Virus record (IMG/VR): IMGVR_UViG_3300032246_001735
Span: 1-60,000 of that record
Length of the DNA stretch: 60,000 bases
Direction: 5' to 3' (one strand)
Source: a virus
Lineage: Duplodnaviria; Caudoviricetes
The notes under the pieces are model-generated. The model ran no database searches, was not told where the DNA came from, and worked only from the letters and a program-made list of their open reading frames with translations. Positions 1 through 59,574 of this stretch are shown in pieces (position 1 is the stretch's first letter; every line of letters begins with the position of its first letter). Made by a program: the position numbers and the translations under genes.

Positions 1-134
1 ACAACTCCGTGATCTAATAACCATTGCCCGTGCCCAACTTGGTTACGATCACAATCAAATCTGTTGATAATCATCAGCCCCTGTTCAGTACTGACCAGGA
101 CATTTTTCCTCACTCGATTGTTTACATAAAACAT
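1..134 (-). CDS. 5' part of a gene running off the window edge; possibly FkbM-type methyltransferase
   Basis: ATG at 134 overlaps the TAA of the previous gene (TAATG). Open to position 1: MFYVNNRVRKNVLVSTEQGLMIINRFDCDRNQVGHGQWLLDHGV. Not in the ORF track; family is a resemblance only. Confidence 0.5.
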   Translation of the reverse strand, partial: MFYVNNRVRKNVLVSTEQGLMIINRFDCDRNQVGHGQWLLDHGV

Positions 135-22089: not shown

Positions 22090-22090
22090 T

Positions 22091-48254: not shown

Positions 48255-48295
48255 GATTAGATAAAGAACACTGCTTATAACAGTATTTACACACG

Positions 48296-48381: not shown

Positions 48382-48475
48382 GGGGGAAATCATACTGTAT
48401 ATACACACACGCATATACATATGTGTATATACAGTATAAGTGTAGAGTACACTGGGATCCCTCTGTGAGAACACT

Positions 48476-48545
48476 GGGAGAACTGAAAAGGCACGGTAGG
48501 GAAATGGTAACTGCACTGAGGGAGAACTGAAAAGGCACGGTAGGG
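48476..48545. repeat. 26-bp direct repeat x2
   Basis: GGGAGAACTGAAAAGGCACGGTAGGG at 48476-48501 and 48520-48545. Confidence 0.9.
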
Positions 48546-49121
48546 GACCGCAAAGGATCGGTGAGAGAATGGCGGGAGAATTGTGGGATTATGGTGAAAA
48601 GTATTTTAACTTAACCCCCCACCCCCACCCTGGTCTCACGGTGAATCACTATAGAAACAGTGCTAAATCCTGTCAAATGGTGTCTAGAGTGGGACCAAAA
48701 TTGGGGGAAATAGCCTATTTTTAGACCATTAGGACCCCATATATAAATAGAATTCTAAACCGAGCGCTAGTGGGAATCTAGGATCTAATCTACCGGGCAC
48801 TCTAGGGCCGACGGGTTGATTCATTCTAGAGGTCATGAGGACATGGTCCCTTGAATCTGCGGCTAGTCTGCGACCAACTTAGAGAGGTAAGACCGCCCCT
48901 GTAGGGGTTAACAGCAGAACGGGACTGCTTAGAACTGGTCAGCTAGAGCAGTACTACTAGGGGCACACTGTATACACGTATACTCTGTGCCCTTTAGTTT
49001 CTATCACAGAGCACTGTATACTCATATACAACACTATATGTATAGTATAAACAGTCGAGGATCTCAAGGCCCGTAATCCCACTGTATATACTCACTATAC
49101 TATTATCTCAGTATAGTGTGT

Positions 49122-49330
49122 ATTATAGCCGTATACTCCCGGGTTATAGTGGTATAATATTATCTGATTATACGGGTTTTTAGTCTTATACTCCCGGGTT
49201 ATAGTGGTATAATATTATCTGATTATACGGGGAGTATACGGCTATAATCCCGGGTTTTAAAATTATAATATTATCTGATTATACGGGAGTTTATCGGAAT
49301 AATATTATGTCAGTATACGGGATTATATCA
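49122..49330. repeat. Iteron-like direct repeats bracketed by a 19-bp inverted repeat
   Basis: 45-bp exact repeat at 49132-49176 and 49187-49231, with decaying copies to ~49330. ATTATAGCCGTATACTCCC (49122-49140) is inverted at 49230-49248. Confidence 0.9.
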
Positions 49331-49415
49331 GAATAATGTTATTGGATTATAAGTGGAGTGCCGGGGTGTGGCTTTTGGGCAACGATCACAGTCATCACGA
49401 TCTCACACTTTTCGG

Positions 49416-49443
49416 TTGACACAGTGTGCAGAGACTGTATAAT
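49416..49443 (+). promoter_or_regulatory. Promoter P1
   Basis: TTGACA-N16-TATAAT; ATG 6 nt downstream with no RBS. Confidence 0.75.
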
Positions 49444-49449
49444 ACGAGA

Positions 49450-49794
49450 ATGGACACACAAACACAGCCCCGCAAAAAACGCAGCGACCGCAATCACATT
49501 GTGTACGAGCTGGTCATCGGCTCAGAAAACTATGTGGGAGTCACTGCTAAGACTGAGAGCACTGTGGTCAAGAGTGTGCAGAGCAGGCTCGCCAAGCACT
49601 GGTATCGTGCACAGAAGGAAGGCAAGGACTGGGCCTTGTGCCGTGCACTGCGTCAGTTGACCAATCGTGCAGAAGTTGAGATCCGCATACACGAGATCGT
49701 GCGGGGCAAGAGTGCCGCGCACAAGAGGGAAGTTGAGATCCGTCGTGGCGTTAAGCCCACACTGAACACAGATGTTAGGGGAGATAGTGCTTGA
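49450..49794 (+). CDS. GIY-YIG-like nuclease domain protein
   Basis: Start refined to MDTQ; HIVY..NYVGVT..RL.KH..E..I..P.LN pattern. Confidence 0.65.
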   Translation: MDTQTQPRKKRSDRNHIVYELVIGSENYVGVTAKTESTVVKSVQSRLAKHWYRAQKEGKDWALCRALRQLTNRAEVEIRIHEIVRGKSAAHKREVEIRRGVKPTLNTDVRGDSA

Positions 49795-49854
49795 CAGGGC
49801 ACTAAGACTTCGCTATAATACTTGAACACTAACGCAACAGAGAGAGCACACACT
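49791..49854 (+). promoter_or_regulatory. Promoter/leader cassette P2
   Basis: TTGACA(49791)-N17-TATAAT(49814)-ACTTGAACACTAAC. Confidence 0.9.
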
Positions 49855-50043
49855 ATGCTATACGACCTCGACACCTTCGTTAACACTAACGCTAGCACCT
49901 TTGAGGGCTCGCTTGAGGAGTTCACCAGCACGTTCCCTGCAGCAGACTGCGACGAAACAGCAGACCCAGTGCTGGTGTACCTGCGAGCGGGAGAGCCTGT
50001 TGCTTGGTACGACCTCGAACTTGAGTGCGGGTTTGTGGCTTAA
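49855..50043 (+). CDS. Small acidic hypothetical protein
   Basis: MLYDLD..; 62 aa, 13 D/E vs 1 R. Confidence 0.7.
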   Translation: MLYDLDTFVNTNASTFEGSLEEFTSTFPAADCDETADPVLVYLRAGEPVAWYDLELECGFVA

Positions 50044-50061
50044 ATGCCACAATCTGCGGGG

Positions 50062-50121
50062 TTGACAACAGCCCCGCAGTTCGCTATAATACTTGAACAC
50101 TAACAGCACGGAGCAGCAAAG
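50062..50121 (+). promoter_or_regulatory. Promoter/leader cassette P3
   Basis: TTGACA(50062)-N17-TATAAT(50085)-ACTTGAACACTAACAGCACGGAGC. Confidence 0.9.
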
Positions 50122-51012
50122 ATGAAAGCAGAAATTATTTTCCAAGACGGCAATTGGATCGGTATGGCAGCAGGCAAGAAAGTGGTCAAGAGCTACGATC
50201 AAACCCGTGTGGTCAAGATGATGGCCAAAGCAGGCTACAAGAACGTGCCCATCCGGGGTGAGGATGTTACCACTGCAGTGGAAGATGCAGAGTGCCAGTG
50301 GGACATCAATCAGCGATTCAGTTTCCTCACTGACCTCGTTACCATGGTAGCCAAACGGCAGGCTGTGAGTGTGGTTGTCACAGGTCCTGGAGGCCTAGGC
50401 AAGACGCACACTGTACAGGCTGCGCTCCAGTCAGCAGGTCTCAAAGATGCCAGCGACATGAACAATTATGGCAAAGACGGCCTGTATCGCGTGATCAAAG
50501 GCTATAGCACTGCTAAAGGCCTGTTCCGTGAACTCTACGAGAACCGTGACAGTGTGATCGTGTTTGACGACTGCGATGCTGTGCTCAAGGATCCCGTGGC
50601 CTTGAACCTGCTCAAAGGTGCTCTTGACAGTTACGACAAACGAGTGATTTCTTGGAATGCAGACTTCCGTGACGAAGATCTCGAGCGCAGTTTCCAGTTC
50701 ACGGGGCGTGTGATCTTTATCAGCAACATCAAGCGTGAGAATCTTGATGCTGCCTTGCTGACTCGTGCCTACTGTGTGGACCTGCGTATGACTGATGCAC
50801 AGAAACTGGAGCGTATGAGTGTGCTCACTGAAAGTGCTGACTTCCTGCCGCAGTTTGACATCAAGCACAAGCGGGAAGCACTGGCCCTGATTGGGGAGGT
50901 AGGCGATCGTGCTCGTGAGATCAGTCTGCGTACCCTGCAGGCTGTGACTCGGATCCGTGCTGCTAACACCAAGAACTGGCGTGCACTGGCAGAGTACACT
51001 TTGACCAACTAA
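50122..51012 (+). CDS. AAA+/P-loop ATPase
   Basis: Walker A GPGGLGKT, Walker B IVFDDCD, IFISN, ALLTR. Confidence 0.85.
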   Translation: MKAEIIFQDGNWIGMAAGKKVVKSYDQTRVVKMMAKAGYKNVPIRGEDVTTAVEDAECQWDINQRFSFLTDLVTMVAKRQAVSVVVTGPGGLGKTHTVQAALQSAGLKDASDMNNYGKDGLYRVIKGYSTAKGLFRELYENRDSVIVFDDCDAVLKDPVALNLLKGALDSYDKRVISWNADFRDEDLERSFQFTGRVIFISNIKRENLDAALLTRAYCVDLRMTDAQKLERMSVLTESADFLPQFDIKHKREALALIGEVGDRAREISLRTLQAVTRIRAANTKNWRALAEYTLTN

Positions 51013-51026
51013 GGCGGCAGTGCCGG

Positions 51027-51054
51027 GGTGTTGTAGAAATGCAACACCTTTTTT
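51027..51054 (+). terminator. Terminator-like hairpin / palindromic operator upstream of P4
   Basis: GGTGTTGT-AGAAAT-GCAACACC followed by TTTTTT; 51014-51061 matches 55801-55848 with one mismatch. Confidence 0.65.
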
Positions 51055-51056
51055 GG

Positions 51057-51120
51057 TTGACGGGCGGGCTCTAGTTCGCTATAATCATTGAACACTAACA
51101 GCACACACGGAGCAGTAGAG
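51057..51120 (+). promoter_or_regulatory. Promoter/leader cassette P4
   Basis: TTGACG(51057)-N17-TATAAT(51080)-CATTGAACACTAACAGCAC..GGAGC. Confidence 0.88.
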
Positions 51121-51525
51121 ATGGGCAAGATCTTACACTTTAGACCTACTTGTATCAATCTAGGCTGTAAGAGCCCGTGTACCCCCATGCGAGGCCGGAT
51201 TGGGGACAGTGACGTGCGCTACAGAGTTTTCTGTGACCTTTGCCACAGAAACAGTTATATGGACAAGCCCTTGGCCCCAGGTGTCACTCGCTTCAAGAAG
51301 AACCGTTGCTCCAATACCAATAGCCGACTGGGTTTCCCTTGCGTAGTGGATTGGGCCTTGGTAGAGAGCACAGGCTTCAAGCTGAGCACCGAAGTGGATC
51401 ACAAGAACGGTGACAATACAGACAATCGGTTGCGTAATCTGCAAGAGCTGTGCAGCCTGTGCCACAAGGAAAAAGGCAAGCGCAGTGGGGATCACGACAG
51501 CTGGAAACACTACAGATCGGCTTGA
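51121..51525 (+). CDS. HNH endonuclease-like protein with extra Cys motifs
   Basis: Start refined to MGKIL; VDHKNGDNTDNRLRNLQELCSLCH. Confidence 0.8.
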   Translation: MGKILHFRPTCINLGCKSPCTPMRGRIGDSDVRYRVFCDLCHRNSYMDKPLAPGVTRFKKNRCSNTNSRLGFPCVVDWALVESTGFKLSTEVDHKNGDNTDNRLRNLQELCSLCHKEKGKRSGDHDSWKHYRSA

Positions 51526-51579
51526 CAAGTAGAGTTTGCGGCTATATAATCATTGAACACTAAGCAAATGGGGCACGAG
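51522..51579 (+). promoter_or_regulatory. Promoter/leader cassette P5
   Basis: TTGACA(51522)-N17-TATAAT(51545)-CATTGAACACTAA. Confidence 0.88.
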
Positions 51580-51864
51580 ATGTTGCAAGACTACACCATG
51601 TACATTTGGAAACTGGATCGTCGACTCAAGACCGGGCGGCGTGCCGTTCAAACCTATGTTTATCGTGCCAAGCATGATCAGTGGATGCAGGAGGAGGTGC
51701 GTGATCTGCAGGCAGGCTTGTACCCTAAGAGCAAGGGGTTTGTGCTAGAGTTCGTGCCCACCATGAAGACGGTGCGGAACCTGATGACTGGGGAGGAAGT
51801 GCAGATCCCCCATGATACTCCTCGCTCTTGCGACCCTAGTACTGAACTTTATTGGAGCATGTGA
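51580..51864 (+). CDS. Hypothetical protein
   Basis: MLQDYT..V.NLMTG..V.I..DTP..CDPS.E.YWSM. Confidence 0.7.
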   Translation: MLQDYTMYIWKLDRRLKTGRRAVQTYVYRAKHDQWMQEEVRDLQAGLYPKSKGFVLEFVPTMKTVRNLMTGEEVQIPHDTPRSCDPSTELYWSM

Positions 51865-51865
51865 T

Positions 51866-52105
51866 ATGAATTGGATTCTACTAGCAGTGGCCACTCTGCA
51901 GCCCATTTCCGCTCACACCACGCGAGTGGGCTGTGAGTTGGAGATCAGACAGATGATCCGGCAGGAGAACCCCATGCCCCACCACTTGACATTTGAGCAA
52001 GAAGAAGCATACAAGGCCCGGATTGATGCACTGTACAATGGTCAAAAATCCTACCTCTGTGTGCGAAATAAGCCACAATCTTCGGTTGACAAGCCAGTTC
52101 AATGA
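51866..52105 (+). CDS. Hypothetical protein with hydrophobic N-terminus
   Basis: Start refined to MNWILLAV, after GGAG. Confidence 0.6.
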   Translation: MNWILLAVATLQPISAHTTRVGCELEIRQMIRQENPMPHHLTFEQEEAYKARIDALYNGQKSYLCVRNKPQSSVDKPVQ

Positions 52106-52144
52106 AGGTATAATACTTGAACACTGGGAAACAAGGAGTAGCAG
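52086..52144 (+). promoter_or_regulatory. Promoter/leader cassette P6
   Basis: TTGACA(52086)-N17-TATAAT(52109)-ACTTGAACACT..AAGGAG. Confidence 0.9.
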
Positions 52145-52234
52145 ATGTTAACAGTTCTTGCAGTTTGGTTTGCGGTCAGTGTGCCTGTAGCACTGCTGGT
52201 AGGCGCTGTAATCCGATTTGGCTCAGGAGAGTAA
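52145..52234 (+). CDS. 29-aa single-transmembrane peptide (missed by the ORF track)
   Basis: AAGGAG RBS; MLTVLAVWFAVSVPVALLVGAVIRFGSGE. Confidence 0.7.
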   Translation: MLTVLAVWFAVSVPVALLVGAVIRFGSGE

Positions 52235-52238
52235 CAGC

Positions 52239-52415
52239 ATGAAAATTGATACCATGATGGAGATTGGTGAAATTCAAGGTCTGCTAGAAGATCTTGCTGA
52301 GCGTATAGGCTACCTGCCCATTGCTACCGTGAAGCGGCGGCAGATGGAAAGCAAACTCCTGGAGATCGAAGAGTTCCTGGATGAGGAACTGCAGTTGGCC
52401 AGCACTGATTGGTAG
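52239..52415 (+). CDS. Small acidic helical protein
   Basis: Start refined to MKIDTMM, after AGGAG. Confidence 0.65.
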   Translation: MKIDTMMEIGEIQGLLEDLAERIGYLPIATVKRRQMESKLLEIEEFLDEELQLASTDW

Positions 52416-52416
52416 G

Positions 52417-52475
52417 TTGACACAAGGCTCAAAAGGCCTTATAATACTTGAACACTAGCAAACAAGGAGCAGCAA
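52417..52475 (+). promoter_or_regulatory. Promoter/leader cassette P7
   Basis: TTGACA(52417)-N17-TATAAT(52440)-ACTTGAACACTAGC..AAGGAGCAGCAA. Confidence 0.9.
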
Positions 52476-52808
52476 ATGAACTACACTCAAGAGCAGATTA
52501 ACGCAATCGTAGCAGAAGCCCAAGTTGAAGCCCGCCGGGCAGCAGAAGCATTCCACGCCCAGTATGGCGATCGTGATTGCTGTGGCTTTGCGTGGACCAA
52601 CATATACGGCATCAAAGGCAACACCAAGGTGGGCAAGATGCTCAAGGCTGCTGGTGTGCGGCAGGATTACACCAAGGCCTTCCAGATCTGGAACCCCTCA
52701 AAGTTCCCCACGCAGAGCATGAACATTCTGGAAGCGGGTGCACAGGCCGCAGCGGAGGTGTTCCGCAAGTACGGCTTCGACAGCCTTGCTGGCAGCAGGA
52801 TGGACTGA
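52476..52808 (+). CDS. Hypothetical phage protein (CGFAW motif)
   Basis: 110 aa, strong RBS; CCGFAW..QS..EAGA.A.A.V..SRMD. Confidence 0.75.
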   Translation: MNYTQEQINAIVAEAQVEARRAAEAFHAQYGDRDCCGFAWTNIYGIKGNTKVGKMLKAAGVRQDYTKAFQIWNPSKFPTQSMNILEAGAQAAAEVFRKYGFDSLAGSRMD

Positions 52809-52859
52809 GCCCTAAGGGGTGTGGTGTATGTGCCACACCCCGGCACTCCAATCTAGTGG

Positions 52860-52918
52860 TTGACAGGCGCCCAAGAGTTCGCTATAATACTTGAACACTA
52901 ACAGCAAGGAGCAGCAAG
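52860..52918 (+). promoter_or_regulatory. Promoter/leader cassette P8
   Basis: TTGACA(52860)-N17-TATAAT(52883)-ACTTGAACACTAACAGCAAGGAGCAGCAA. Confidence 0.9.
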
Positions 52919-53137
52919 ATGCAGTGGAACTTGGAAGGTATGCGAGTTTGGGGACACTACCTGGACATGTTCCCGGTCAGCGGAGAGGTTGTCTTGAGCC
53001 GCGTGTGCTATGGTGGCAGTGTACAGCATACCGTGGTCCTGGAGCAGCCCTTGACGGTGTTTGGTCGAGTGCGGGCAGCAGGCGAGCGGGTCTTGCTGGA
53101 TCACAAGGATGTGGTTCGTGTAAAGGATGCGGTATGA
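52919..53137 (+). CDS. Hypothetical protein
   Basis: MQWNLEGMRV..; directly after the cassette RBS. Confidence 0.7.
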   Translation: MQWNLEGMRVWGHYLDMFPVSGEVVLSRVCYGGSVQHTVVLEQPLTVFGRVRAAGERVLLDHKDVVRVKDAV

Positions 53138-53322
53138 CCAATGAGTATATCCCCGTAGTCGCTGTTCGTTGGTGGTTTCGCAATGACCACGAATGGATCC
53201 AGCATTTTGATAATGCCCCCGAGCGGGACTATTGGATCAACCGTGTGGGCTTGGTCACGCATCCTGACATTGTGCGAGTCACTATCTATGAAGGTGACTG
53301 GGAAATGAACCTTAAAGGATAG
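53134..53322 (+). CDS. Hypothetical protein
   Basis: MTNEYIPVV..; ATGA overlap with the previous gene. Confidence 0.65.
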   Translation: MTNEYIPVVAVRWWFRNDHEWIQHFDNAPERDYWINRVGLVTHPDIVRVTIYEGDWEMNLKG

Positions 53323-53323
53323 G

Positions 53324-53378
53324 TTGACAAGTCAGAGACTTGACAGTATAATACTTGAACACTAGCAAGGAGCACACG
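53324..53378 (+). promoter_or_regulatory. Promoter/leader cassette P9
   Basis: TTGACA(53324)-N17-TATAAT(53347)-ACTTGAACACTAGCAAGGAGC. Confidence 0.9.
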
Positions 53379-53570
53379 ATGTTGAACACTTGGGAAATGG
53401 ATACGATCCGCGAGATCAAGGCCCGTGTTGTGCGTAAACAACCCGTGGCAGATTGGGAGAAGCAGCTGGTCCTAGATCTGCTCCGCCGCGAAGGCGAGGT
53501 AGTGCGGCAGGATGTGATCGATCGTGCTCGCAATAGCGGCTTCAATGTGCAGGGCATCAAGACTCGATGA
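53379..53570 (+). CDS. Hypothetical protein
   Basis: Start refined to MLNTWEM. Confidence 0.68.
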   Translation: MLNTWEMDTIREIKARVVRKQPVADWEKQLVLDLLRREGEVVRQDVIDRARNSGFNVQGIKTR

Positions 53571-53580
53571 GGTTGACAAA

Positions 53581-53763
53581 ATGGAGCAAACTGTGAGCAA
53601 AGACACTTACCTGTTCTATACATACGATTCTAGGGGCAATGACAGGATCATCCCGGTCAAGGCCCATACCAGAGACCAAGCGTTCGAACTGTTCGATCGT
53701 GTGTACGGAGAGGACACACCGGTTGACTTCGTGGTACGCCGGGAAGAGCAGTATCTCGGTTGA
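53581..53763 (+). CDS. Hypothetical protein
   Basis: ATG 53581, or GTG 53593 after GGAG; preceded by an orphan GGTTGACA. Confidence 0.6.
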   Translation: MEQTVSKDTYLFYTYDSRGNDRIIPVKAHTRDQAFELFDRVYGEDTPVDFVVRREEQYLG

Positions 53764-53779
53764 CAAATAGGAACAGGAG

Positions 53780-54010
53780 ATGAATATGAGCAGACGTATT
53801 GAGTACCGTGTGGATTTGGATGAGCGTGGTGAATTCCGTGCCACAGTCTACGATGGCGACACTGTATTGGCCGAAGTTGACACCGAGGATATGATGTTTA
53901 TGATAGAGAACATGGGGGTCCGTGATCCTCGTGATCACCATGGGTTGAGGGATTATTTCCGCCTTGCTGGAGTGTTGGATTCTAGCGACACCTTTGAAGT
54001 CTGCGGTTGA
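53780..54010 (+). CDS. Small acidic hypothetical protein
   Basis: AGGAG RBS; ATG 53780 or 53786. Confidence 0.65.
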   Translation: MNMSRRIEYRVDLDERGEFRATVYDGDTVLAEVDTEDMMFMIENMGVRDPRDHHGLRDYFRLAGVLDSSDTFEVCG

Positions 54011-54026
54011 CCGGGAGGATTAAACA

Positions 54027-54206
54027 ATGGAATACCTCAAAAGAGCAGAACTCTACTGTGCGGCCAGAGGTGATGAACTTTGGTTCAAGAACCTGTACAC
54101 AGGATTCCGGCAATACAATACTGTGTCTGACAGTGTATGGAAGACCTTGAGTTACCTGTACAGCAACGAAACCGCTGATCTGCTGGAGAGCCAACAAACC
54201 GGTTGA
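54027..54206 (+). CDS. 59-aa hypothetical protein (missed by the ORF track)
   Basis: GGAGG RBS; MEYLKRAELYCAARGDELWFKNLY..QQTG; stop lies inside the next TTGACA. Confidence 0.68.
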   Translation: MEYLKRAELYCAARGDELWFKNLYTGFRQYNTVSDSVWKTLSYLYSNETADLLESQQTG

Positions 54207-54261
54207 CAAGCCCTAGACCCGGTGCTATAATACACTTACACTGAAACACAAGGAGCAGCAA
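54203..54261 (+). promoter_or_regulatory. Promoter/leader cassette P10 (variant leader)
   Basis: TTGACA(54203)-N17-TATAAT(54226) with TG extension; ..CAAGGAGCAGCAA. Confidence 0.88.
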
Positions 54262-54405
54262 ATGGAAACTTTTGATGATATCCAGTGCGAAGAGTACTAC
54301 GAGGCATTTGGCACCGAGCAGGAGCAGTTTGAGCAGTGGCAGCAGTCCTTGGAAGCAGCAGAGATTGACCTTGTTAACGCTGAACTCAGGTGCATTACTG
54401 GTTGA
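54262..54405 (+). CDS. 47-aa very acidic protein (missed by the ORF track)
   Basis: METFDDIQCEEYYEAFGTEQEQFEQWQQSLEAAEIDLVNAELRCITG; 13 D/E vs 1 R. Confidence 0.72.
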   Translation: METFDDIQCEEYYEAFGTEQEQFEQWQQSLEAAEIDLVNAELRCITG

Positions 54406-54460
54406 CAACGCCCGAAAGGGCTGCTATAATACTTGAACACTAACACAACGGAGCACGGAA
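54402..54460 (+). promoter_or_regulatory. Promoter/leader cassette P11
   Basis: TTGACA(54402)-N17-TATAAT(54425)-ACTTGAACACTAAC; spacer contains GCCC-GAAA-GGGC. Confidence 0.9.
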
Positions 54461-54766
54461 ATGAGCTACCCCAATATGAGTTACTGCATGTGCGAAAACA
54501 CCCTGCTGGCTCTGCAGCAGATTATCACGGCCATGAACATGGAAGGCACGGACTTTATCCGTGACCTGAGCCGTAGTGAGCGGCGTGCGTTCGGCGAACT
54601 GCTCAACGCCTGCGAGGACTTTAGGGCGGTTGCAGAGGAACTGCAGGACGAAGCGGATCGTGAAGAAGAGTACGAGGACGATATGGACGGCGATCATGCC
54701 AGTGCTTTGGCTTCGGCAGGCTTGGGCACAGACGAGGATTATGGTGCCTGCGACGAGCGGTTCTAA
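54461..54766 (+). CDS. Acidic hypothetical protein
   Basis: NMSYCM.ENT..; C-terminal DGDHASALASAG.GTDEDYG. Confidence 0.72.
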   Translation: MSYPNMSYCMCENTLLALQQIITAMNMEGTDFIRDLSRSERRAFGELLNACEDFRAVAEELQDEADREEEYEDDMDGDHASALASAGLGTDEDYGACDERF

Positions 54767-54802
54767 CCTGGATAATTGCGTCTGTTATTTTAAAGGAAAA
54801 TA

Positions 54803-55750
54803 ATGTATAAAACTACTAAGAAATTAGTTCTCACCTGTCTTGTTGGACTTATTCCCACGCTCTCGTTAGCATGGGAACCTACCAAACCAGTTAATGTGGT
54901 TATCGCGTATGGTCCTGGATCGGGAAACGAAATTCTCTTTAGAAAAATTGACAGTATCATCAAAAAAACAAATAAGAATGTAACATTTGTTCTTGAGTTT
55001 AAACCAGGTGCAAACGAATTAGTGGGTATGAACCATTTCGCACAAGCGGCGAATGATGGTTATACAATTTATGCTCCCGCAGTCGGTGTGTGGATTGGTA
55101 CACCTGTTTGGTACAAAAAATCAATGATTCAAGATCCCATCGAATGGTCACCGATTGTCAGTCTAGGCGAAGCGCCACTGGCTCTATATGCTTCTAATGA
55201 AAGTAAAGTGAATAACCCTAGAGAATTTTCACAGGCATTAACAGCAGGTGCTAAAATTAATGTGGGAGTTGGTGCTGCTGTTCATGTTCTATCGTATGAA
55301 TATATGGCTAAACAGACCAATGCGACTAACGCTCAACGTATTCAATTTAATAGCCCTGCCGCGGTGGCACAAGCAGTTTCCGGTAACCAAATTGAATTTG
55401 GTATTAGTCCATTGCCTATCGCTCTAGAACTTGCAAAAGCCGGTAAACTTAAAATTATTGGTATCACAGGAAATATAAAGGGGGGCCCCTATCCAAATAT
55501 AGCAGACACATTTAAAGGTCTTGACTTAGTTGGGCAGATCGGAATCGTACTTCCTAAAAATACTTCGAAAGAAATTTTAGATTTTTATATCGGACTATTT
55601 ACAGAAGCAGTTAATAGCCCAGAATATCTAGAGTTTTTAAAAGAAACTAATTGGTTTGATACTATGTATAATCACAATAATTTCAAAGCATTTATTTTTT
55701 CACAACGCAAGAAGTGGATCCCTGTAGCAGAAACAATACAGTTTAACTAA
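54803..55750 (+). CDS. Bug/TctC family substrate-binding protein (second copy)
   Basis: Signal peptide; WEPTKPV.VVI.Y.PG, KPGA..VG, A..DGYTI, GKLKIIG motifs. Confidence 0.85.
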   Translation: MYKTTKKLVLTCLVGLIPTLSLAWEPTKPVNVVIAYGPGSGNEILFRKIDSIIKKTNKNVTFVLEFKPGANELVGMNHFAQAANDGYTIYAPAVGVWIGTPVWYKKSMIQDPIEWSPIVSLGEAPLALYASNESKVNNPREFSQALTAGAKINVGVGAAVHVLSYEYMAKQTNATNAQRIQFNSPAAVAQAVSGNQIEFGISPLPIALELAKAGKLKIIGITGNIKGGPYPNIADTFKGLDLVGQIGIVLPKNTSKEILDFYIGLFTEAVNSPEYLEFLKETNWFDTMYNHNNFKAFIFSQRKKWIPVAETIQFN

Positions 55751-55813
55751 TTGTGAAATTACCAAATCGAGTGTTTTTTACAGAGGTCACTGGGCTATTT
55801 GCGGCAGTGCCGG

Positions 55814-55841
55814 GGTGTTGTAGAAATACAACACCTTTTTT
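55814..55841 (+). terminator. Terminator-like hairpin / palindromic operator upstream of P12
   Basis: GGTGTTGTA-GAAA-TACAACACC followed by TTTTTT. Confidence 0.7.
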
Positions 55842-55843
55842 GG

Positions 55844-55901
55844 TTGACAGGCAGTCCAAACTCCGCTATAATCATTGAACACTAACGCAATGGAGCAGCA
55901 A
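55844..55901 (+). promoter_or_regulatory. Promoter/leader cassette P12
   Basis: TTGACA(55844)-N17-TATAAT(55867)-CATTGAACACTAACGCAATGGAGCAGCAA. Confidence 0.9.
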
Positions 55902-56159
55902 ATGATTTCAGCAAAACAGCAGGCACGTTTCGATCGCGAAGCACAGCAGCGCGAGGTCTTTGTTCAGGCACTGAATCAAATGATGGAGGCACAGCGTGAA
56001 AACTACGGCGGTTACGCTTATAGTGCCGGTTGGCTGCAGAGTATGTTGACTCAGGCTTGGATGCAAATGCCCAAGGCAAAGCGCGAGCGGGTGCTGGAAG
56101 ATGTGCAGGCTCAGACCATCAAGCAGTTGAAAGAAGTGGTTGACCGGGCTCGAGTTTGA
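55902..56159 (+). CDS. Hypothetical protein
   Basis: Start refined to MISAKQQ; YAYSAGWLQS motif. Confidence 0.7.
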   Translation: MISAKQQARFDREAQQREVFVQALNQMMEAQRENYGGYAYSAGWLQSMLTQAWMQMPKAKRERVLEDVQAQTIKQLKEVVDRARV

Positions 56160-56197
56160 CACTATAATACTTGAACACTAACAGCAAGGAGCACTAG
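56140..56197 (+). promoter_or_regulatory. Promoter/leader cassette P13
   Basis: TTGACC(56140)-N17-TATAAT(56163)-ACTTGAACACTAACAGCAAGGAGC. Confidence 0.88.
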
Positions 56198-56398
56198 ATG
56201 ACTAACATTGAACTGGCAAAAGGCATCAAGCACGGTATGTTCGCTAGCCGCCCTACCGTTGAGGAGGCTTGGGACTATGTGGATCACATTGCCCGCTCCT
56301 GCGGCAAGGACAACCGTGCGGCAGTGATCACTGCGGTGCAGGTCATGCTTAACACCGTGGCAGAGCAGATGTTGCGTAACGAACACACTGAAGTCTAA
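56198..56398 (+). CDS. Hypothetical protein
   Basis: 66 aa, after the cassette RBS. Confidence 0.7.
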   Translation: MTNIELAKGIKHGMFASRPTVEEAWDYVDHIARSCGKDNRAAVITAVQVMLNTVAEQMLRNEHTEV

Positions 56399-56402
56399 GT
56401 GG

Positions 56403-56460
56403 TTGACGCAGCCCTTCGGGGCTGCTATAATACTTGAACACTAGAGCAATGGAGCACACA
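56403..56460 (+). promoter_or_regulatory. Promoter/leader cassette P14
   Basis: TTGACG(56403)-N17-TATAAT(56426); spacer forms GCAGCCC-TTCG-GGGCTGC. Confidence 0.9.
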
Positions 56461-56697
56461 ATGGCTATCACAGAAGATCAAATTGCCGATATGGCTTTGA
56501 AGGCCTGTTTCTATGTTACGCCCGAGGATCAGTGGCTGAGAATCGATTACTGCGATATGTCAGAGGGATACTTTCAGTGCCACGACGAAGAGTCCTTTGA
56601 AGAGTACCGTGTGGATTTTGCAGAGGTCACCCTGCAAGGTAACGAATGCTTCTATCAACTGACCAAGATGGAAGTAGTTGACACAGAGTCAGTTTGA
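56461..56697 (+). CDS. Acidic hypothetical protein
   Basis: Start refined to MAITEDQ; D/E-rich. Confidence 0.7.
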   Translation: MAITEDQIADMALKACFYVTPEDQWLRIDYCDMSEGYFQCHDEESFEEYRVDFAEVTLQGNECFYQLTKMEVVDTESV

Positions 56698-56735
56698 CAG
56701 TATAATACTTGAACACTAGAGCAATGGAGCAAGTG
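56678..56735 (+). promoter_or_regulatory. Promoter/leader cassette P15
   Basis: TTGACA(56678)-N17-TATAAT(56701)-ACTTGAACACTAGAGCAATGGAGC. Confidence 0.9.
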
Positions 56736-57011
56736 ATGCGAGTAAAAACGATCGACCCATACGATACCCGTGCGTACACCTGCGCGGTGCTGGAACTTGT
56801 CGACGAAGGTATGCTGGACAAGGACACACTGATCGCAGACTTGCTCAGTTGGATGAGCGAGTTCGAAGTTGAGCAGTTTTGCCGCAAGAACTTGCGGGAC
56901 GATGACACCAACGAGTGCCTGATTGGTCCCGATGTGGACGATGAGGAAGAGGACAGTGACGAAGCACTACTGAACAACTTTAACTATGTGGGTTCACGTC
57001 ATCACTATTGA
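56736..57011 (+). CDS. Acidic hypothetical protein
   Basis: Start refined to MRVKTID; ends FNYVGSRHHY. Confidence 0.7.
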   Translation: MRVKTIDPYDTRAYTCAVLELVDEGMLDKDTLIADLLSWMSEFEVEQFCRKNLRDDDTNECLIGPDVDDEEEDSDEALLNNFNYVGSRHHY

Positions 57012-57022
57012 TCGGAGAGCAT

Positions 57023-57211
57023 ATGATCCCGGAATTTATTCATAAGATTGACTGGGCTCTGTTACGCAAACAGAAACGTTGGCTGCGGCGGCAATTGCAG
57101 CGCCATCTTGACTGTGCCGAAGCAGAGGGGCTACTGGCCCTAGTGGTTGCGATACAGGACTACGCAGTTGATGAGATGTTTATTGATGAAGCAGAAGTTT
57201 TTGGAGAATGA
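57023..57211 (+). CDS. Hypothetical protein
   Basis: Start refined to MIPEFI, after GGAG; IDW.LLR.QK..L..IQD.AVD. Confidence 0.65.
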   Translation: MIPEFIHKIDWALLRKQKRWLRRQLQRHLDCAEAEGLLALVVAIQDYAVDEMFIDEAEVFGE

Positions 57212-57212
57212 T

Positions 57213-57377
57213 ATGAAAGATTGGTTCAATACTCGCTACAGTGTACAAGAGCTGCGTACTATGATCGCAGACCATCCACAGTGGATCTATCGTGAAGTGC
57301 CTGAGAATATGGGCCGCTGTCGGTTGGCCGCAGAGTTGGAGCGGTTGGATCAAGAACTAGAGGAGCAGGCCCTGTGA
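57213..57377 (+). CDS. Hypothetical protein
   Basis: Start refined to MKDWFN, after GGAG. Confidence 0.6.
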   Translation: MKDWFNTRYSVQELRTMIADHPQWIYREVPENMGRCRLAAELERLDQELEEQAL

Positions 57378-57613
57378 GGATTCCGTCGGGTCCTGTAGAC
57401 AAGGCTCTTAAATGGACCGCCACTGCGATCTTGATTGTAGGATCGCTGATCAACGGTTTGGGCTATTATCCTTGGGGTCCATTAATCCTCACAGCAGGCG
57501 GAGCCGTTTGGCTCATAGTGGCCTGTCGGTGGCGTGAACCCAGTATGATCGTGACCAATGCTGTTATGTTTGTGGCGGGCGCTGGCGGTTTGCTGTTTAA
57601 TCTCATTAAGTGA
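57374..57613 (+). CDS. Small membrane protein (about 3 transmembrane helices)
   Basis: KWTAT..LI.G..YPW..W..WREPS.IV.N; GTG start after GAGGAG. Confidence 0.7.
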   Translation: MRIPSGPVDKALKWTATAILIVGSLINGLGYYPWGPLILTAGGAVWLIVACRWREPSMIVTNAVMFVAGAGGLLFNLIK

Positions 57614-57651
57614 AGTGCCGGGGTGTTGTAGAAATACAACAGAGATTTTGG

Positions 57652-57709
57652 TTGACAAGACAGAACAGATCCGCTATAATCATTGAACACTAACAGCACG
57701 GAGCACAAG
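57652..57709 (+). promoter_or_regulatory. Promoter/leader cassette P16
   Basis: TTGACA(57652)-N17-TATAAT(57675)-CATTGAACACTAACAGCACGGAGC; palindrome at 57624-57641. Confidence 0.9.
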
Positions 57710-57931
57710 ATGACAGACTTTCAAGACCGCGACAACGACAACTTAGACTTCCTGCTCAGCCTGGACCAAGCAGGCCTGGTTGTTTGGTTCATGCAGGCCA
57801 CAGCCGATGACGTTGCTTATGCTATGGAACTGATGGCCCGGCACAGCGAGGAGTTGGCCATTGAGCAGACTCTTAACACCACGGAGTGGATCGAATCCAA
57901 TGTGGTGCTGGAACGTTTTCGTTTACACTGA
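57710..57931 (+). CDS. Acidic hypothetical protein
   Basis: Start refined to MTDFQD; D.DNL.FLLS..W..DD..YA.EL. Confidence 0.7.
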   Translation: MTDFQDRDNDNLDFLLSLDQAGLVVWFMQATADDVAYAMELMARHSEELAIEQTLNTTEWIESNVVLERFRLH

Positions 57932-57958
57932 TTCACACTAACAGCCTGGAGCAACTAA

Positions 57959-58387
57959 ATGGGAACTCGTAGCGCAATCGGTATGCAGTTTGGCAACATC
58001 GTCAAAGCAGTCTACTGCCACTGGGATGGTTATCCAGAGTATGTGGGTGCAATACTGCACAAGTATTACAACAGAACCAAGACTGCACACCTGCTCAGTC
58101 TGGGCAATCTCAGTTCGCTGGGTGAACTTATTGAACCCGATCCGGAATTTCCGCACTCATTCGAGCACAGGCAGAAAGATGTGTGCGTGTTCTACGGTCG
58201 AGACCGAGATGAATCAGGTAATGAGTATCAGGTGTTTGACACAGTGGATCTATTCAAGCAAGACTTTGGTTCAGGTGTAGAATACTTGTACCTACTGACC
58301 ACTGATGGCAACTGGGTGGTTGCTACAGATGACAGTTACTCTAATTGGCAACTGTTGGCTGATGTGCTAGAACAAGAAGAGGCCTGA
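57959..58387 (+). CDS. Hypothetical phage protein (TRS..YCHWDGY type)
   Basis: MGTRSAIG..VYCHWDGYP..VG..L..Y; leader remnant CACTAACAGCCTGGAGCA upstream. Confidence 0.75.
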   Translation: MGTRSAIGMQFGNIVKAVYCHWDGYPEYVGAILHKYYNRTKTAHLLSLGNLSSLGELIEPDPEFPHSFEHRQKDVCVFYGRDRDESGNEYQVFDTVDLFKQDFGSGVEYLYLLTTDGNWVVATDDSYSNWQLLADVLEQEEA

Positions 58388-58388
58388 T

Positions 58389-58595
58389 ATGAACAAGATC
58401 GAAAAGAAGATCCTATCTGCACTAGAAGATCAAGACATCCTAGATGTATACTTTGATTCTGGGCGATTGATCTATATGAATGATTGGGACGGGAGTGCCG
58501 TTCGAAAGACCGTTCAAGACCAATTCCCCCAATTCGATCCCTCAAATATTATCTATGATGAGGAGCCGGAATACTTTGGAAAAATTGGTTACTAA
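58389..58595 (+). CDS. Small acidic hypothetical protein
   Basis: 68 aa, GAGG RBS. Confidence 0.6.
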   Translation: MNKIEKKILSALEDQDILDVYFDSGRLIYMNDWDGSAVRKTVQDQFPQFDPSNIIYDEEPEYFGKIGY

Positions 58596-58601
58596 AAACG
58601 G

Positions 58602-58630
58602 TTGACCATTCGAATAGAATACTGTATAAT
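58602..58630 (+). promoter_or_regulatory. Promoter P17 (no cassette leader)
   Basis: TTGACC-N17-TATAAT. Confidence 0.82.
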
Positions 58631-58687
58631 ATTATTAATGCGAGATAATTCGCAGTCACACACAACACACACAGAAAGGATTTAATT

Positions 58688-59092
58688 ATGTCACAGTTTA
58701 CATATGCAGGTGTTTCCAGGCACAAAGGCGAGTTCAAAGTTCGATTTGCCAATGATCAGATGCGGGTCAAAGTTCTAGCCAAGAACGATCATACTGATAT
58801 TGACATCATTGCTCTTCCGGACGCAATGACCAAAGAGGCCGCTGTGGCCTACCTAACCCAGATCGCATTCTGGGACAAGGGTGGTGTAGTCAATGCTGAA
58901 GTCCGTGCTGCTATTGAAGCAGAGCAGACCAAACGTGAACCCAAGGCTGCTAGCAAGGACAAGCCCAAGAAAGAGGCCAAGAAGCCCAAGAAAGAAGTTC
59001 CCGCTAAGGCGATCACGCTGGACGCTATCAAGGCCAAAGCACCCAAGGTTGCCAAGCCCAATCTAGAAGACCTAGAAGAGGCTCCGTTCTAA
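58688..59092 (+). CDS. Hypothetical protein with Lys/Ala/Pro-rich C-terminal tail
   Basis: AAGGA RBS; YAGVS..KVRFAND..; KPKKEAKKPKK tail. Confidence 0.75.
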   Translation: MSQFTYAGVSRHKGEFKVRFANDQMRVKVLAKNDHTDIDIIALPDAMTKEAAVAYLTQIAFWDKGGVVNAEVRAAIEAEQTKREPKAASKDKPKKEAKKPKKEVPAKAITLDAIKAKAPKVAKPNLEDLEEAPF

Positions 59093-59179
59093 ATCTAAAT
59101 ACCCCTGGGGCTGATACTTGTAAATAATCAAACGCAAGTATCTACTCTTTAGCGGGGTATTTAGAAATGGGTAGGGACA

Positions 59180-59503
59180 ATGGGAAAATTGACTATACTG
59201 ACTAGATCATCTGTAAGGTTTGATCCCCGGGATCCAACTCATAGGTTATACTATTATCAGTACATACGAACAAATAGACAGGGCGAATGTCCTGTAAGAT
59301 TTACCACAGTGCAGGATGATCAGGGCAATATGGTAGAGAAGGTACGCAGAATGCTCTGCGATTACTATACTGGCCTTGAGTTTCAGATGTATCAAGAACG
59401 AGATCCAAATTCTTTTACAGTTCGAGAAGAAAGAATCATCGCAGCAGAAATTCCGGATGAAATCCCCACACTGACAGATACAATTGGTGAAACTGATAGT
59501 TGA
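59180..59503 (+). CDS. Hypothetical protein
   Basis: 107 aa; V.FDP..HR..Y..CP..F. Confidence 0.6.
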   Translation: MGKLTILTRSSVRFDPRDPTHRLYYYQYIRTNRQGECPVRFTTVQDDQGNMVEKVRRMLCDYYTGLEFQMYQERDPNSFTVREERIIAAEIPDEIPTLTDTIGETDS

Positions 59504-59574
59504 TTAACTGTGTTAATATGTGTAATATTATTAGACACTGCACAGCGCAGTTAAAGAACAAAAAGGAAAACAAA

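What the first reader, a model, noticed from the sequence alone, without database searches (positions are those of the whole stretch)
49416..58630. Array of 17 near-consensus sigma70 promoter-leader cassettes, each carrying one to a few small genes
Seen: TTGAC(A/G/C)..TATAAT at 49416, 49791, 50062, 51057, 51522, 52086, 52417, 52860, 53324, 54203, 54402, 55844, 56140, 56403, 56678, 57652 and 58602. The spacer is 17 bp in all but the first (16 bp). Fourteen continue with an almost invariant leader, (AC/CA)TTGAACACT..(GG)AGCA..ATG, while the spacers and cargo genes are unrelated. Known: T4-type phages use repeated promoter/stem-loop cassettes (PeSL elements) in hyperplastic regions. Inference: this is an immediate-early host-takeover region in which the shared promoter-leader acts both as expression signal and as homology for swapping gene cassettes, with no integrase visible in the window.
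Basis: partly seen in the sequence, partly recalled or inferred. Interest (0 to 1): 0.85.

Follow-up and report, generated by a model that had tools for sequence, protein, structure and literature searches.

The report
Gene-shuffling promoter cassettes in giant phage
An uncultured giant phage carries a row of 17 near-perfect bacterial promoters, most with the same short leader and a few tiny genes, and related phages have swapped genes at these repeated signals, much as already described for T4-type phages.

Summary
17 co-oriented TTGAC(A/G/C)-16/17-TATAAT sites lie in 49416-58630, against 0.05 expected, and 14 carry the leader (AC/CA)TTGAACACT. The cassette has fixed geometry: GGAG about 20 nt and ATG about 30 nt after the -10. 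The upstream gene usually stops in or beside the promoter.

The cassette is confined to one region, in the window and in four of five related viral records (the fifth holds only its end). The window comes from an uncultured jumbo myovirus lineage: a close relative's large terminase is 55% identical to that of Pseudomonas phage PA5oct.

Close relatives differ by gene replacement, gain and loss. 12 of 19 alignment break ends fall between a -35 and a start codon. A distant relative keeps the cassette but shares only about 10 of its roughly 65 listed reading frames, in permuted order on one strand. Three small variant contigs carry reciprocal chimeric leaders. Orthologous promoters show AC/CA flips and spacer patch exchanges.

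My reading: these are PeSL-like early expression cassettes that also serve as recombination homology. Transcription timing, start sites and host are untested. The kind is known from T4-type phages; this is a new variant in another lineage. Interest is moderate.

The parts
49416..49452 (+). Promoter 1: TTGACA, 16-bp spacer, TATAAT, ATG only 6 nt after the -10 (candidate leaderless mRNA). It drives a 114-aa basic protein.
   Evidence: the same arrangement is seen in relative R1
49791..49857 (+). Cassette 2 (ACTTGAACACT leader). The upstream gene's TGA lies inside the -35. Drives a 62-aa gene.
50062..50124 (+). Cassette 3, with the -35 in the loop of an 8-11 bp GC-rich stem. Drives a 296-aa AAA-type ATPase (phrog_1250).
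   Evidence: z -5.1; compensatory stem change against R1
51025..51123 (+). Intrinsic-terminator-like hairpin plus T-run (51025-51050) abutting cassette 4 (CATTGAACACT). Drives the HNH endonuclease gene 51121-51525, which relative R1 replaces with an unrelated gene.
51522..51582 (+). Cassette 5. The upstream TGA lies in the -35. Identity with R1 resumes just 5' of its -10.
52086..52147 (+). Cassette 6. The upstream gene ends in the spacer. Drives a 29-aa membrane-like gene and a 58-aa gene.
52417..52478 (+). Cassette 7, with a hairpin in the spacer. Drives a 110-aa gene (phrog_22149).
52860..52921 (+). Cassette 8, with a GC-rich hairpin just upstream (about 52810-52836). Drives two genes.
   Evidence: z -3.3
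53324..53381 (+). Cassette 9, with a 6-bp hairpin in the spacer. Its leader is the left break of a two-gene block (53376-53774) that is absent from R1.
53570..54011 (+). Three orphan GGTTGAC junctions without a -10 (53570-53576, 53758-53764, 54005-54011). Two of them hold the upstream gene's TGA.
54203..54264 (+). Cassette 10, with the variant leader ACACTTACACT and TG before the -10. The upstream TGA lies in the -35.
54402..54463 (+). Cassette 11, with a GCCC-GAAA-GGGC hairpin in the spacer. Drives a 101-aa acidic gene.
54767..55805 (+). Low-GC insertion carrying a TctC-family solute-binding protein gene (54803-55750) with no cassette of its own. Absent from R1.
55812..55904 (+). Terminator-like hairpin plus T-run (55812-55837) abutting cassette 12.
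56140..56200 (+). Cassette 13. The upstream gene ends in the spacer.
56403..56463 (+). Cassette 14, with a 7-bp GC hairpin (TTCG loop) in the spacer. Its leader is the left break of the gene replaced in R1 (56457-56670).
56678..56738 (+). Cassette 15. Drives a four-gene operon.
57623..57712 (+). Degenerate copy of the terminator hairpin, then cassette 16.
57935..57961 (+). Leader-only remnant (ACACTAAC..GGAGCA..ATG) with no promoter, in front of the 142-aa gene. The ortholog in relative R3 has a full cassette.
   Evidence: (E 0.004)
58602..58690 (+). Promoter 17 (TTGACC-17-TATAAT) with an unrelated 57-nt leader. Drives a 134-aa gene.

Best explanation
The region is the early, hyperplastic gene block of an uncultured jumbo myovirus.

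Inferred working of one cassette. Each cassette is a standard expression unit of about 62 bp. Its parts, in order, are: a consensus -35; a free 17-bp spacer that often holds a GC-rich hairpin; a consensus -10; an invariant stretch spanning the discriminator and the start of the transcript; an A/C-rich leader predicted to be unstructured; GGAG at a fixed distance; and the ATG. Host sigma70-type RNA polymerase would fire all units at once on DNA entry. The hairpins and the three terminator copies would damp read-through from the unit upstream. The uniform leader would give every small gene the same strong translation start.

Supported by comparison. Because the -10-to-GGAG stretch is repeated head-to-tail every 200-1400 bp, general homologous recombination uses it as portable homology. 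A UvsX-like recombinase is encoded in a close relative's contig. Unequal exchange or excision and re-insertion between cassettes deletes, inserts, replaces and re-orders genes without disturbing neighbours. Short-patch conversion keeps the cassettes alike. This is how PeSL elements of T4-type phages are described as working.
For: Array and geometry. 17 sites against 0.05 expected. 14 exact leaders on one strand. GGAG and ATG in a fixed register.

Confinement. The cassette is limited to one region of the window. The same holds in the relatives G001 (14 forward, 0 reverse), G002 (14 on one strand) and G005 (8); G003 and G004 have 1 each. The model found no hit in 51.6 kb of G003 outside its first 6.5 kb, none in 50 kb of PA5oct and none in 25 kb of RsoM2USA.

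Selection on the signal. Between window and R1 orthologous promoters (16 pairs), identity is -35 0.969, -10 0.979 and leader positions 1-12 0.969, against spacer 0.812 and upstream 30 nt 0.806. The leader survives in R3, whose shared proteins are only 31-67% identical.

Recombination.
(a) Against R1, the HNH gene is replaced. The left break is at the ATG and the right break just 5' of the next -10. Another gene is replaced with its left break in the middle of the leader. A two-gene block is gained with its left break after GGAGCAC.
(b) 12 of 19 break ends lie between a -35 and 4 nt past the ATG, against an 11% share of sequence (p 7e-8).
(c) R3 shares about 10 genes with the window, out of about 65 listed reading frames, in the order b,e,d,c,a,g,h,i,j,f, all on one strand.
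(d) Variants L136 and L164 come from two different assemblies. Both join the 5' leader of R3's promoter at 1934 to the gene behind its promoter at 2514. L144 carries the reciprocal chimera (5' leader of 2514 plus 3' leader and gene of 1934), placed behind another gene.
(e) All 6 mismatches in leader positions 1-12 are AC/CA dinucleotide flips in 3 orthologous pairs. Two R1 promoters share a spacer half that their window orthologs lack.
(f) Leaders are more alike within a genome than between genomes (0.835 against 0.785, permutation p 2e-4).

Stem-loops. Clear hairpins occur at 9 of 17 sites, plus one degenerate copy, with one compensatory pair change.

Machinery. A UvsX-like recombinase (phrog_97, E 7e-70) is encoded in G003, which overlaps R1's 3' end. 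No integrase or resolvase family matches the window.

Early timing, by analogy. In PA5oct, small genes of the terminal repeat are highly transcribed early, and 32 TTGAC/TATAATA promoters were reported (PMC7318152, passages read). Cargo here is 31 genes with a median of 78 aa; 16 of 31 have pI below 5.5. The 19 cargo proteins scanned against Pfam and/or PHROGs gave only AAA, HNH, TctC and wHTH domain matches plus a few PHROGs of unknown function; 12 small genes were not scanned.
Against: No transcription data exist: start sites, timing and terminator activity are all inferred.

The break-end count does not beat a gene-boundary null (p 0.18 at 0.5). 2 of the 5 window/R1 differences lie outside cassettes.

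Hairpin enrichment is not significant in the window against local controls (p 0.11). It is modest in R3 (p 0.01). 7 of 17 sites have no clear hairpin.

The AT-rich tract upstream of the -35 that is described for PeSLs is absent.

The variant contigs are short metagenome assemblies (1.0-1.9 kb). The UvsX-like gene is in a relative's contig, not in the window.

Conservation of the leader could be explained by selection on expression alone. The within-genome likeness test used only the 17 leaders in the same register (8 window, 9 R3).
Confidence: 0.7

Rival explanations
1. The cassettes are only an expression device. They are strong early promoters with an optimised leader, kept alike by selection. 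Gene turnover happens by ordinary illegitimate or flank-guided recombination. It merely looks cassette-bounded because only breaks at gene boundaries survive.
For: The break-end count is compatible with a gene-boundary null (p 0.18). The TctC insertion and the extra R1 reading frame at an ATGA junction are not cassette-bounded. The -35, -10 and leader are under clear purifying selection. The leader persists without a promoter at 57935-57958, which suggests a translational role of its own.
Against: Reciprocal chimeric leaders cross over at a shared 9-nt stretch inside the leader. The -35 and spacer travel with the upstream gene in the HNH replacement. AC/CA double flips are the only leader changes between orthologs. 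Spacer halves are shared between neighbouring promoters of one genome. Leader variants are genome-specific. Gene order is permuted with the strand kept.
Confidence: 0.15
2. Free-standing homing endonucleases drive the cassette mobility. Double-strand breaks near their own genes cause co-conversion of neighbouring genes from co-infecting relatives.
For: One swapped cassette carries an HNH endonuclease (Pfam HNH_3 E 6e-5; 10 PHROGs annotated as HNH endonuclease). Its homolog sits at a different place in R3 (41% identity). The 2014 PeSL paper names homing endonucleases as a parallel route in T4-type phages (PMC4122927, passages read).
Against: Only 1 nuclease family match was found among the 19 cargo proteins scanned (12 small genes were not scanned). 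My by-eye GIY-YIG reading of the first gene was not supported. The other events involve no nuclease gene. This route does not explain the chimeric leaders.
Confidence: 0.07
3. The invariant box after the -10 (TTGAACACTA) is the site of a dedicated phage factor. That factor is either a regulator that switches the whole early block off or on, or a site-specific enzyme that exchanges cassettes, making this an integron-like system without a known integrase.
For: Positions 7-12 after the -10 are invariant in 8 of 8 window and 9 of 9 R3 leaders compared. That is more than a promoter or a ribosome site is known to need (my knowledge). One break lies exactly after this box (event d).
Against: No integrase or resolvase family matches the window. 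Crossovers are spread over the spacer, the -10, the leader and the ATG rather than at one point. No candidate factor was identified. The box spans the likely transcription start, where sequence affects promoter escape (recalled from work on phage T5 promoters, not checked here).
Confidence: 0.06
4. The rearranged variants are assembly artefacts. Metagenome assemblers joined wrong paths at the repeated cassettes.
For: The junctions lie in repeated sequence. The variant contigs are 1.0-1.9 kb. Cassettes share up to about 32 identical bases.
Against: The sequence shared at the L136/L164 and L144 junctions is only 9 nt, too short to mislead assemblers that use words of 21 or more (my knowledge). 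The same junction was assembled in two different assemblies, L136 and L164. So was the same insertion, in L157 and L164. R1 and R2 are independent contigs with one structure.
Confidence: 0.02

Closest known systems
PeSL (promoter-early stem-loop) cassettes of T4-type phages RB49/phi1, T4/PST and KVP40/nt-1 (PMC2839356 and PMC4122927; passages read)
   Same: Near-perfect TTGACA-N17-TATAAT sites are repeated in a hyperplastic region in front of ORFans, ending with a Shine-Dalgarno sequence and a start codon. G-run/C-run hairpins lie in the spacer, over the -35 or upstream. Indels and replacements between close relatives are bounded by the element, and crossovers map between the -10 and the ATG. 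No dedicated recombinase is known. Homologous recombination over short patches is proposed.
   Different: There is no AT-rich tract upstream of the -35: GG and the upstream gene's stop codon sit there instead. The most conserved part here is the -10 plus a fixed transcribed leader, not the stem-loop, which only about half the sites have. All 17 units are co-oriented in one 9-kb array. The phage belongs to a PA5oct/Atu_ph07-like jumbo lineage, not to classical T4-likes. Promoter activity, terminator activity and mini-circles were shown by experiment for PeSLs; none was tested here.
Early genes in the 39-kb terminal repeat of Pseudomonas jumbo phage PA5oct (PMC7318152, passages read; record MK797984.1)
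   Same: PA5oct is the closest cultured relative by large terminase (54.7% to a close relative of the window). It has a long run of small + strand genes of unknown function next to - strand baseplate genes. Promoters with TTGAC and TATAATA were reported around transcription starts, and the region is highly transcribed early.
   Different: PA5oct's first 50 kb holds only 2 strict TTGAC-16..19-TATAAT matches and no hit to the cassette model. No cargo protein of the window matches that region. No shuffling role is reported in the passages read. Its promoter table (supplement S3) could not be seen.
Host-takeover module of Bacillus phage SPO1 (recalled; one search listed only papers that use the term, none was read)
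   Same: It is a cluster of about two dozen small early genes in many short operons, each with a strong host-sigma promoter and a strong ribosome site (recalled).
   Different: The host is Gram-positive and the genes are unrelated. I recall no report of a shared invariant leader or of cassette shuffling. None of this was tested here.
Integron gene cassettes
   Same: Promoterless or single genes are captured, lost and re-ordered as units in one orientation. The PeSL authors draw the same comparison.
   Different: Integrons need a tyrosine-recombinase integrase, attI/attC sites and one common promoter. Here no integrase family matches, every unit has its own promoter, and the exchange points are scattered.
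Morons (genes added with their own signals by illegitimate recombination), as contrasted with PeSLs in PMC2839356
   Same: The TctC gene at 54803-55750 behaves like one. It has foreign GC content, is absent from the closest relative, and was inserted between a stop codon and a terminator.
   Different: The insert has no promoter-leader cassette of its own, so it would depend on read-through from the cassette at 54402. The other cargo does not fit this pattern.

Membership tests
PeSL cassettes | Sigma70-type early promoter with -35 and -10 boxes and a 17-bp spacer | tested here: met
   16 sites have a 17-bp spacer and 1 has 16 bp. 13 sites score 12/12 and 4 score 11/12 hexamer matches.
PeSL cassettes | Adjacent stable stem-loop (in the spacer, over a box, or upstream) acting as a terminator or attenuator | tested here: inconclusive
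   Clear GC-rich hairpins occur at 9 of 17 sites, plus one degenerate copy. Two are terminator-like hairpins with a T-run. Enrichment against local controls: window p 0.11, relative R3 p 0.01. There is one compensatory change. Terminator activity is not testable here.
PeSL cassettes | [quoted passage not shown] | tested here: not met
   The upstream consensus is tGG. 14 of 17 sites have GG, and coding sequence usually runs into the promoter. T-runs occur only where a terminator abuts the -35.
PeSL cassettes | Shine-Dalgarno sequence and start codon at the 3' end, directly upstream of ORFans in a hyperplastic region | tested here: met
   GGAG and ATG sit in a fixed register. Of 19 cargo proteins scanned, 4 matched a Pfam domain family (AAA, HNH, TctC, wHTH) and 4 more only PHROGs of unknown function; the other 12 cargo genes were not scanned. 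The region differs between relatives.
PeSL cassettes | Insertions, deletions and replacements between close relatives bounded by the element, with crossovers inside it | tested here: met
   3 of the 5 window/R1 differences have a break in a cassette. 8 of 9 break ends in R3-lineage variants do. Chimeric leaders are present.
PeSL cassettes | Formation of mini-circles by exchange between neighbouring elements | not testable with these tools
   Contig L144 has the structure expected after excision and re-insertion. Intermolecular exchange would give the same structure. Testing needs inverse PCR or long reads.
PeSL cassettes | Carried by a T4-type myovirus | tested here: inconclusive
   A close relative's contig encodes a 986-aa tail sheath, a UvsX-like recombinase, and a large terminase that is 54.7% identical to PA5oct's and matches T4-likes more weakly. 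The Pfam Gp23 search was uninformative because its control matched nothing.
Integron | Tyrosine-recombinase integrase next to the cassette array | tested here: not met
   No PF00589 match in the 60-kb record, while the control matched in 14 of 14 genomes. No PF00239 match either. The record is a fragment, so absence from the whole genome is not shown.
Integron | One common promoter, and attC recombination sites at cassette ends | tested here: not met
   Each unit has its own promoter. The repeated element lies 5' of the genes and is a promoter-leader, not an imperfect inverted repeat at the 3' ends.

The most novel reading that the evidence does not exclude
The box that never varies (TTGAACACTA, spanning the likely transcription start) is not just promoter or leader sequence. 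It is the address of a dedicated, still unknown phage factor. That factor would let the phage switch the whole early regulon with one protein, or would catalyse targeted cassette exchange. The array would then be a self-contained gene-capture system of jumbo phages that needs no integrase.
Probability: 0.1. Interest if true: 0.8.

Novelty: new variant of a known kind. Interest (0 to 1): 0.5.

Why it matters
The finding extends the PeSL idea, that regulatory cassettes double as portable homology for gene shuffling, beyond T4-type phages. It places it in an uncultured lineage related to PA5oct/Atu_ph07-type jumbo phages. It does so with natural variants that record both products of a leader-by-leader exchange.

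It also offers a compact 62-bp promoter-leader module with fixed geometry that could be tested as an expression part.

Finally, it gives a simple sequence tag for finding the early, fast-evolving gene block in metagenomic contigs of this lineage. That block is likely to hold host-takeover and counter-defence genes. 19 further contigs carrying the full cassette were found with an 18-nt pattern.

Tried and rejected
- RNA evidence: no RNA holder was listed for 49400-58700.
- Rfam: only chance-level miRNA-model matches in the upstream repeats.
- Megablast of the array against 50,697 phage records: no match.
- Host tracing through the TctC gene failed. Homologs of 50-86% identity exist only in metagenome protein sets, without organism names. 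Two scans of GTDB species genomes gave nothing, then only relatives mostly 19-25% identical (three short partial matches at 35-49%).
- My by-eye reading of the first gene (49450-49794) as a GIY-YIG nuclease was not supported. There was no Pfam or PHROG family at E 0.01, only a 0.067 DmsR_N match, and PDB hits were at chance level.
- Ralstonia jumbo phage RsoM2USA is the best hit of the AAA gene (45%). It has no comparable array around its homolog and no model hit.
- The T4 capsid family search in five relatives' fragments was uninformative, because its control matched nothing.
- An integron reading was rejected.
- The DNA ligase gave no useful classification (about 34% identity to many phages).

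Full report
**Observation.** The window is a 60-kb linear IMG/VR virus record. Shuffles give a mean of 0.05. The site at 49416 has a 16-bp spacer. 14 sites continue with (AC/CA)TTGAACACT, all on the + strand.

- GG precedes the -35 in 14 of 17 sites.
- GGAG lies at a fixed distance after the -10, and the ATG about 10 nt further on.
- For 11 of the 16 promoters that follow a gene, the upstream stop codon lies in the -35 (4), in the spacer (3) or 1-6 nt before the -35 (4).
- Three GGTTGAC junctions without a -10 (53570, 53758, 54005) look like decayed units. So does one leader without a promoter (57935-57958; E 0.004 with a model built from 15 cassettes).
- That model finds nothing else in the window below E 0.3.

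**Surroundings.** Left of the array, genes run on the - strand. They encode tail-fibre and baseplate-type proteins, a DNA ligase, an endolysin-like protein and a low-GC block with radical-SAM-type genes. The array is 48-52% GC against 31-46% for most of the rest. Between the two blocks lies about 1 kb without long reading frames, holding tandem repeats of 22, 55 and 34 nt.

The array carries 31 small genes with a median of 78 aa; 16 of 31 are acidic. I scanned 19 of them against Pfam and/or PHROGs. Named domain matches were an AAA-type ATPase, an HNH endonuclease, a TctC-family binding protein and a winged-helix protein; four more matched only PHROGs of unknown function, and seven gave nothing.

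**Which phage.** An 18-nt pattern from the cassette found related viral contigs.
- R1 (IMGVR_UViG_3300032301_000861) and R2 are 87-96% identical to the window over the array.
- R3 (IMGVR_UViG_3300046007_011930) is distant. Its shared proteins are 31-67% identical, yet it has 23 such promoters in 14.7 kb with the same leader.
- In G001, G002 and G005 the cassettes sit in one region on one strand.
- Record G003 overlaps R1's 3' end at 83-99% identity and runs on for 67 kb. It encodes a large terminase 54.7% identical to that of Pseudomonas jumbo phage PA5oct (next best hits: Sinorhizobium phage Phosso and Agrobacterium phage Atu_ph07), a 986-aa tail sheath, a helicase and a UvsX-like recombinase.
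- CheckV estimates of 14-20% completeness for 50-72 kb fragments, and a relative's cassette lying at the end of a 226-kb contig, point to a jumbo genome.

The host is unknown.

**Break points against the closest relative.** Base-level alignment of the window with R1 shows five structural differences.
- (a) The HNH gene cassette is replaced by an unrelated 161-aa gene. Identity stops at the ATG and resumes just 5' of the next -10. So the next promoter's -35 and spacer travel with the upstream gene.
- (b1) R1 has an extra reading frame at an ATGA stop/start junction.
- (b2) The window has two extra genes. The left break lies right after the leader's GGAGCAC.
- (c) A low-GC TctC gene sits between a stop codon and a terminator hairpin, and is absent from R1.
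- (d) A gene is replaced, with its left break directly after ACTTGAACACT and its right break 7 nt before the next -35.

Of the 10 alignment break ends, 4 lie inside a promoter-leader and 2 more lie within 40 nt upstream.

**More distant and population-level comparison.** R3 shares about 10 genes with the window, out of about 65 reading frames listed for it. Their order is b,e,d,c,a,g,h,i,j,f relative to a-j in the window, and all are on the same strand. Permutation without inversion is what exchange between direct repeats gives.

Several are near-identical variants of R3.
- L136 and L164 come from different assemblies. Both lack R3 1998-2536. The 5' leader of R3's promoter at 1934 runs into the gene behind the promoter at 2514, crossing at a 9-nt stretch that the two leaders share.
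- L144 carries the reciprocal chimera. The distinctive 5' leader of the 2514 promoter is joined to the 3' leader and gene of the 1934 promoter. This two-gene module sits behind a different gene. It is followed by the 2514 promoter's own upstream sequence and -35, now fused to a canonical leader and another gene. That is the structure expected after excision by leader-by-leader exchange and re-insertion by exchange near the -10. Intermolecular exchange would give the same structure.
- L164 and L157, from two assemblies, share a two-cassette insertion whose alignments overlap within the -10 and leader of the promoter at 3180.

8 of 9 break ends in this set lie between a -35 and 4 nt past an ATG.

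**Statistics and their limits.** Pooled, 12 of 19 break ends fall in sequence that makes up 10-11% of the arrays (p 7e-8). If breaks are only tolerated at gene boundaries, about half of which carry a cassette, p is 0.18. The count alone therefore does not prove a recombination role. The chimeras and the following footprints do more.

**Footprints of exchange between cassettes.**
- In 16 orthologous promoter pairs (window against R1), the -35, the -10 and leader positions 1-12 are 97-98% identical, while spacers (81%) and upstream sequence (81%) drift.
- All 6 mismatches in leader positions 1-12 are AC/CA dinucleotide flips, in three pairs and in both directions.
- Two neighbouring R1 promoters share a spacer half that their window orthologs lack.
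- Leaders are more alike within a genome than between genomes (0.835 against 0.785, permutation p 2e-4). R3's positions 13-19 are invariant in 9 of 9, where the window has five versions. This test used only the 8 and 9 leaders in the same register.

**Stem-loops.** Folding shows GC-rich hairpins in the spacer (52417, 53324, 54402, 56403), around the -35 (49791, 50062) or just upstream (51057, 52860, 55844), with a degenerate copy at 57652. Two of the upstream ones are terminator-like hairpins with a T-run that abuts the -35. The stem at 50062 differs from R1 by a compensatory pair. Against local control windows the enrichment is weak in the window (p 0.11) and modest in R3 (p 0.01).

**Comparison with what is known.** The PeSL papers describe near-perfect sigma70 promoters with a stem-loop in varying position, a Shine-Dalgarno sequence and a start codon. 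They sit before ORFans in hyperplastic regions of T4-type phages and are associated with indels between close relatives. Crossovers were mapped between the -10 and the ATG, mini-circles were detected by inverse PCR, and no dedicated recombinase is known (PMC2839356, passages; PMC4122927, abstract and passages).

The present array works like that on every point I could test. There are three differences:
- there is no AT-rich tract upstream;
- only about half the sites have a clear stem-loop;
- the conserved core is the -10 plus a fixed transcribed leader.

The phage is a PA5oct-like jumbo virus rather than a classical T4-like one. In the full-text library, a search for PeSL terms listed only papers on T4-type or related phages among its phage items. 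I saw those as listings only, apart from one jumbo-phage review where the term occurs only in the reference list.

For PA5oct, early transcription of the small genes in the 39-kb terminal repeat and 32 TTGAC/TATAATA promoters are reported (PMC7318152, passages). But its first 50 kb holds only 2 strict promoter matches and no hit to my cassette model, and no cargo homolog.

**Verdict.** The array is real and highly non-random. Its most likely nature is a set of early expression cassettes that also mediate modular gene shuffling by general homologous recombination (confidence 0.7). Shown here:
- the sequence regularities;
- confinement to one region;
- conservation of the signal over diverged relatives;
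- cassette-located break points;
- chimeric leaders.

Inferred only:
- use by host sigma70 polymerase;
- early timing;
- attenuation by the hairpins;
- the translational role of the leader;
- the recombinase involved.

It is a new variant of a known kind and of moderate interest.

Noticed in passing
window 54803-55750 (+) and 16320-17255 (-): The phage carries two TctC-family periplasmic binding protein genes, 25% identical to each other. One is a low-GC insertion in the early array and is absent from the closest relative. The other sits among tail-fibre genes. Homologs of the first at 50-86% identity occur only in metagenome protein sets. Scans of GTDB species genomes gave relatives mostly 19-25% identical.
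   Followed up: partly
window 48476-48545 and 49132-49359: The ~1-kb gap between the divergent late and early gene blocks holds tandem repeats of 22 nt (3.1 copies), 55 nt (2.9 copies) and 34 nt (2.8 copies) with internal inverted repeats. It is conserved in R1 at about 87%. An origin of replication, a regulatory site or a genome-end signal are all possible.
   Followed up: no
window 59898-60000: A perfect 31-nt tandem repeat (3.3 copies) runs off the window end. Each unit contains a 9-bp hairpin that the scan flags as terminator-like. R1 aligns only as far as 59905.
   Followed up: no
window 49416-49452: At the first promoter, the ATG lies only 6 nt after the -10, so the 114-aa basic protein may be made from a leaderless mRNA. 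R1 has the same layout.
   Followed up: partly
window 48000-60000 against the rest: The early array is 48-52% GC, while most of the record is 31-46% GC. The minimum of 31-35% lies at 36-44 kb, where radical-SAM-type genes and repeated phrog_13607 genes sit. The reason is unknown.
   Followed up: no
window 31846-31874 (-): The only other perfect TTGAC-N18-TATAAT in the window lies directly upstream of the ATP-dependent DNA ligase gene (30511-31812, - strand). It lacks the conserved leader.
   Followed up: no
window 19303-22104 (-): This 933-aa protein starts with a Pfam Mtd_N domain (the major tropism determinant N-terminal domain, E 2e-14). I did not look for a diversity-generating retroelement.
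   Followed up: no
L180 (G003) 243-1466 against R1 13166-13618: Downstream of the window's end, the relatives continue the array with a variant leader (ACATACACT..). G003 has a 768-nt insertion of small membrane-protein cassettes, two of them paralogous, whose left break lies at a -35.
   Followed up: partly
L177 (contig of 226,173 nt, positions 218953-226173): A more distant relative's cassette array lies at the very end of a 226-kb contig. This fits a jumbo genome, and either a terminal position or an assembly break at the repeats.
   Followed up: no
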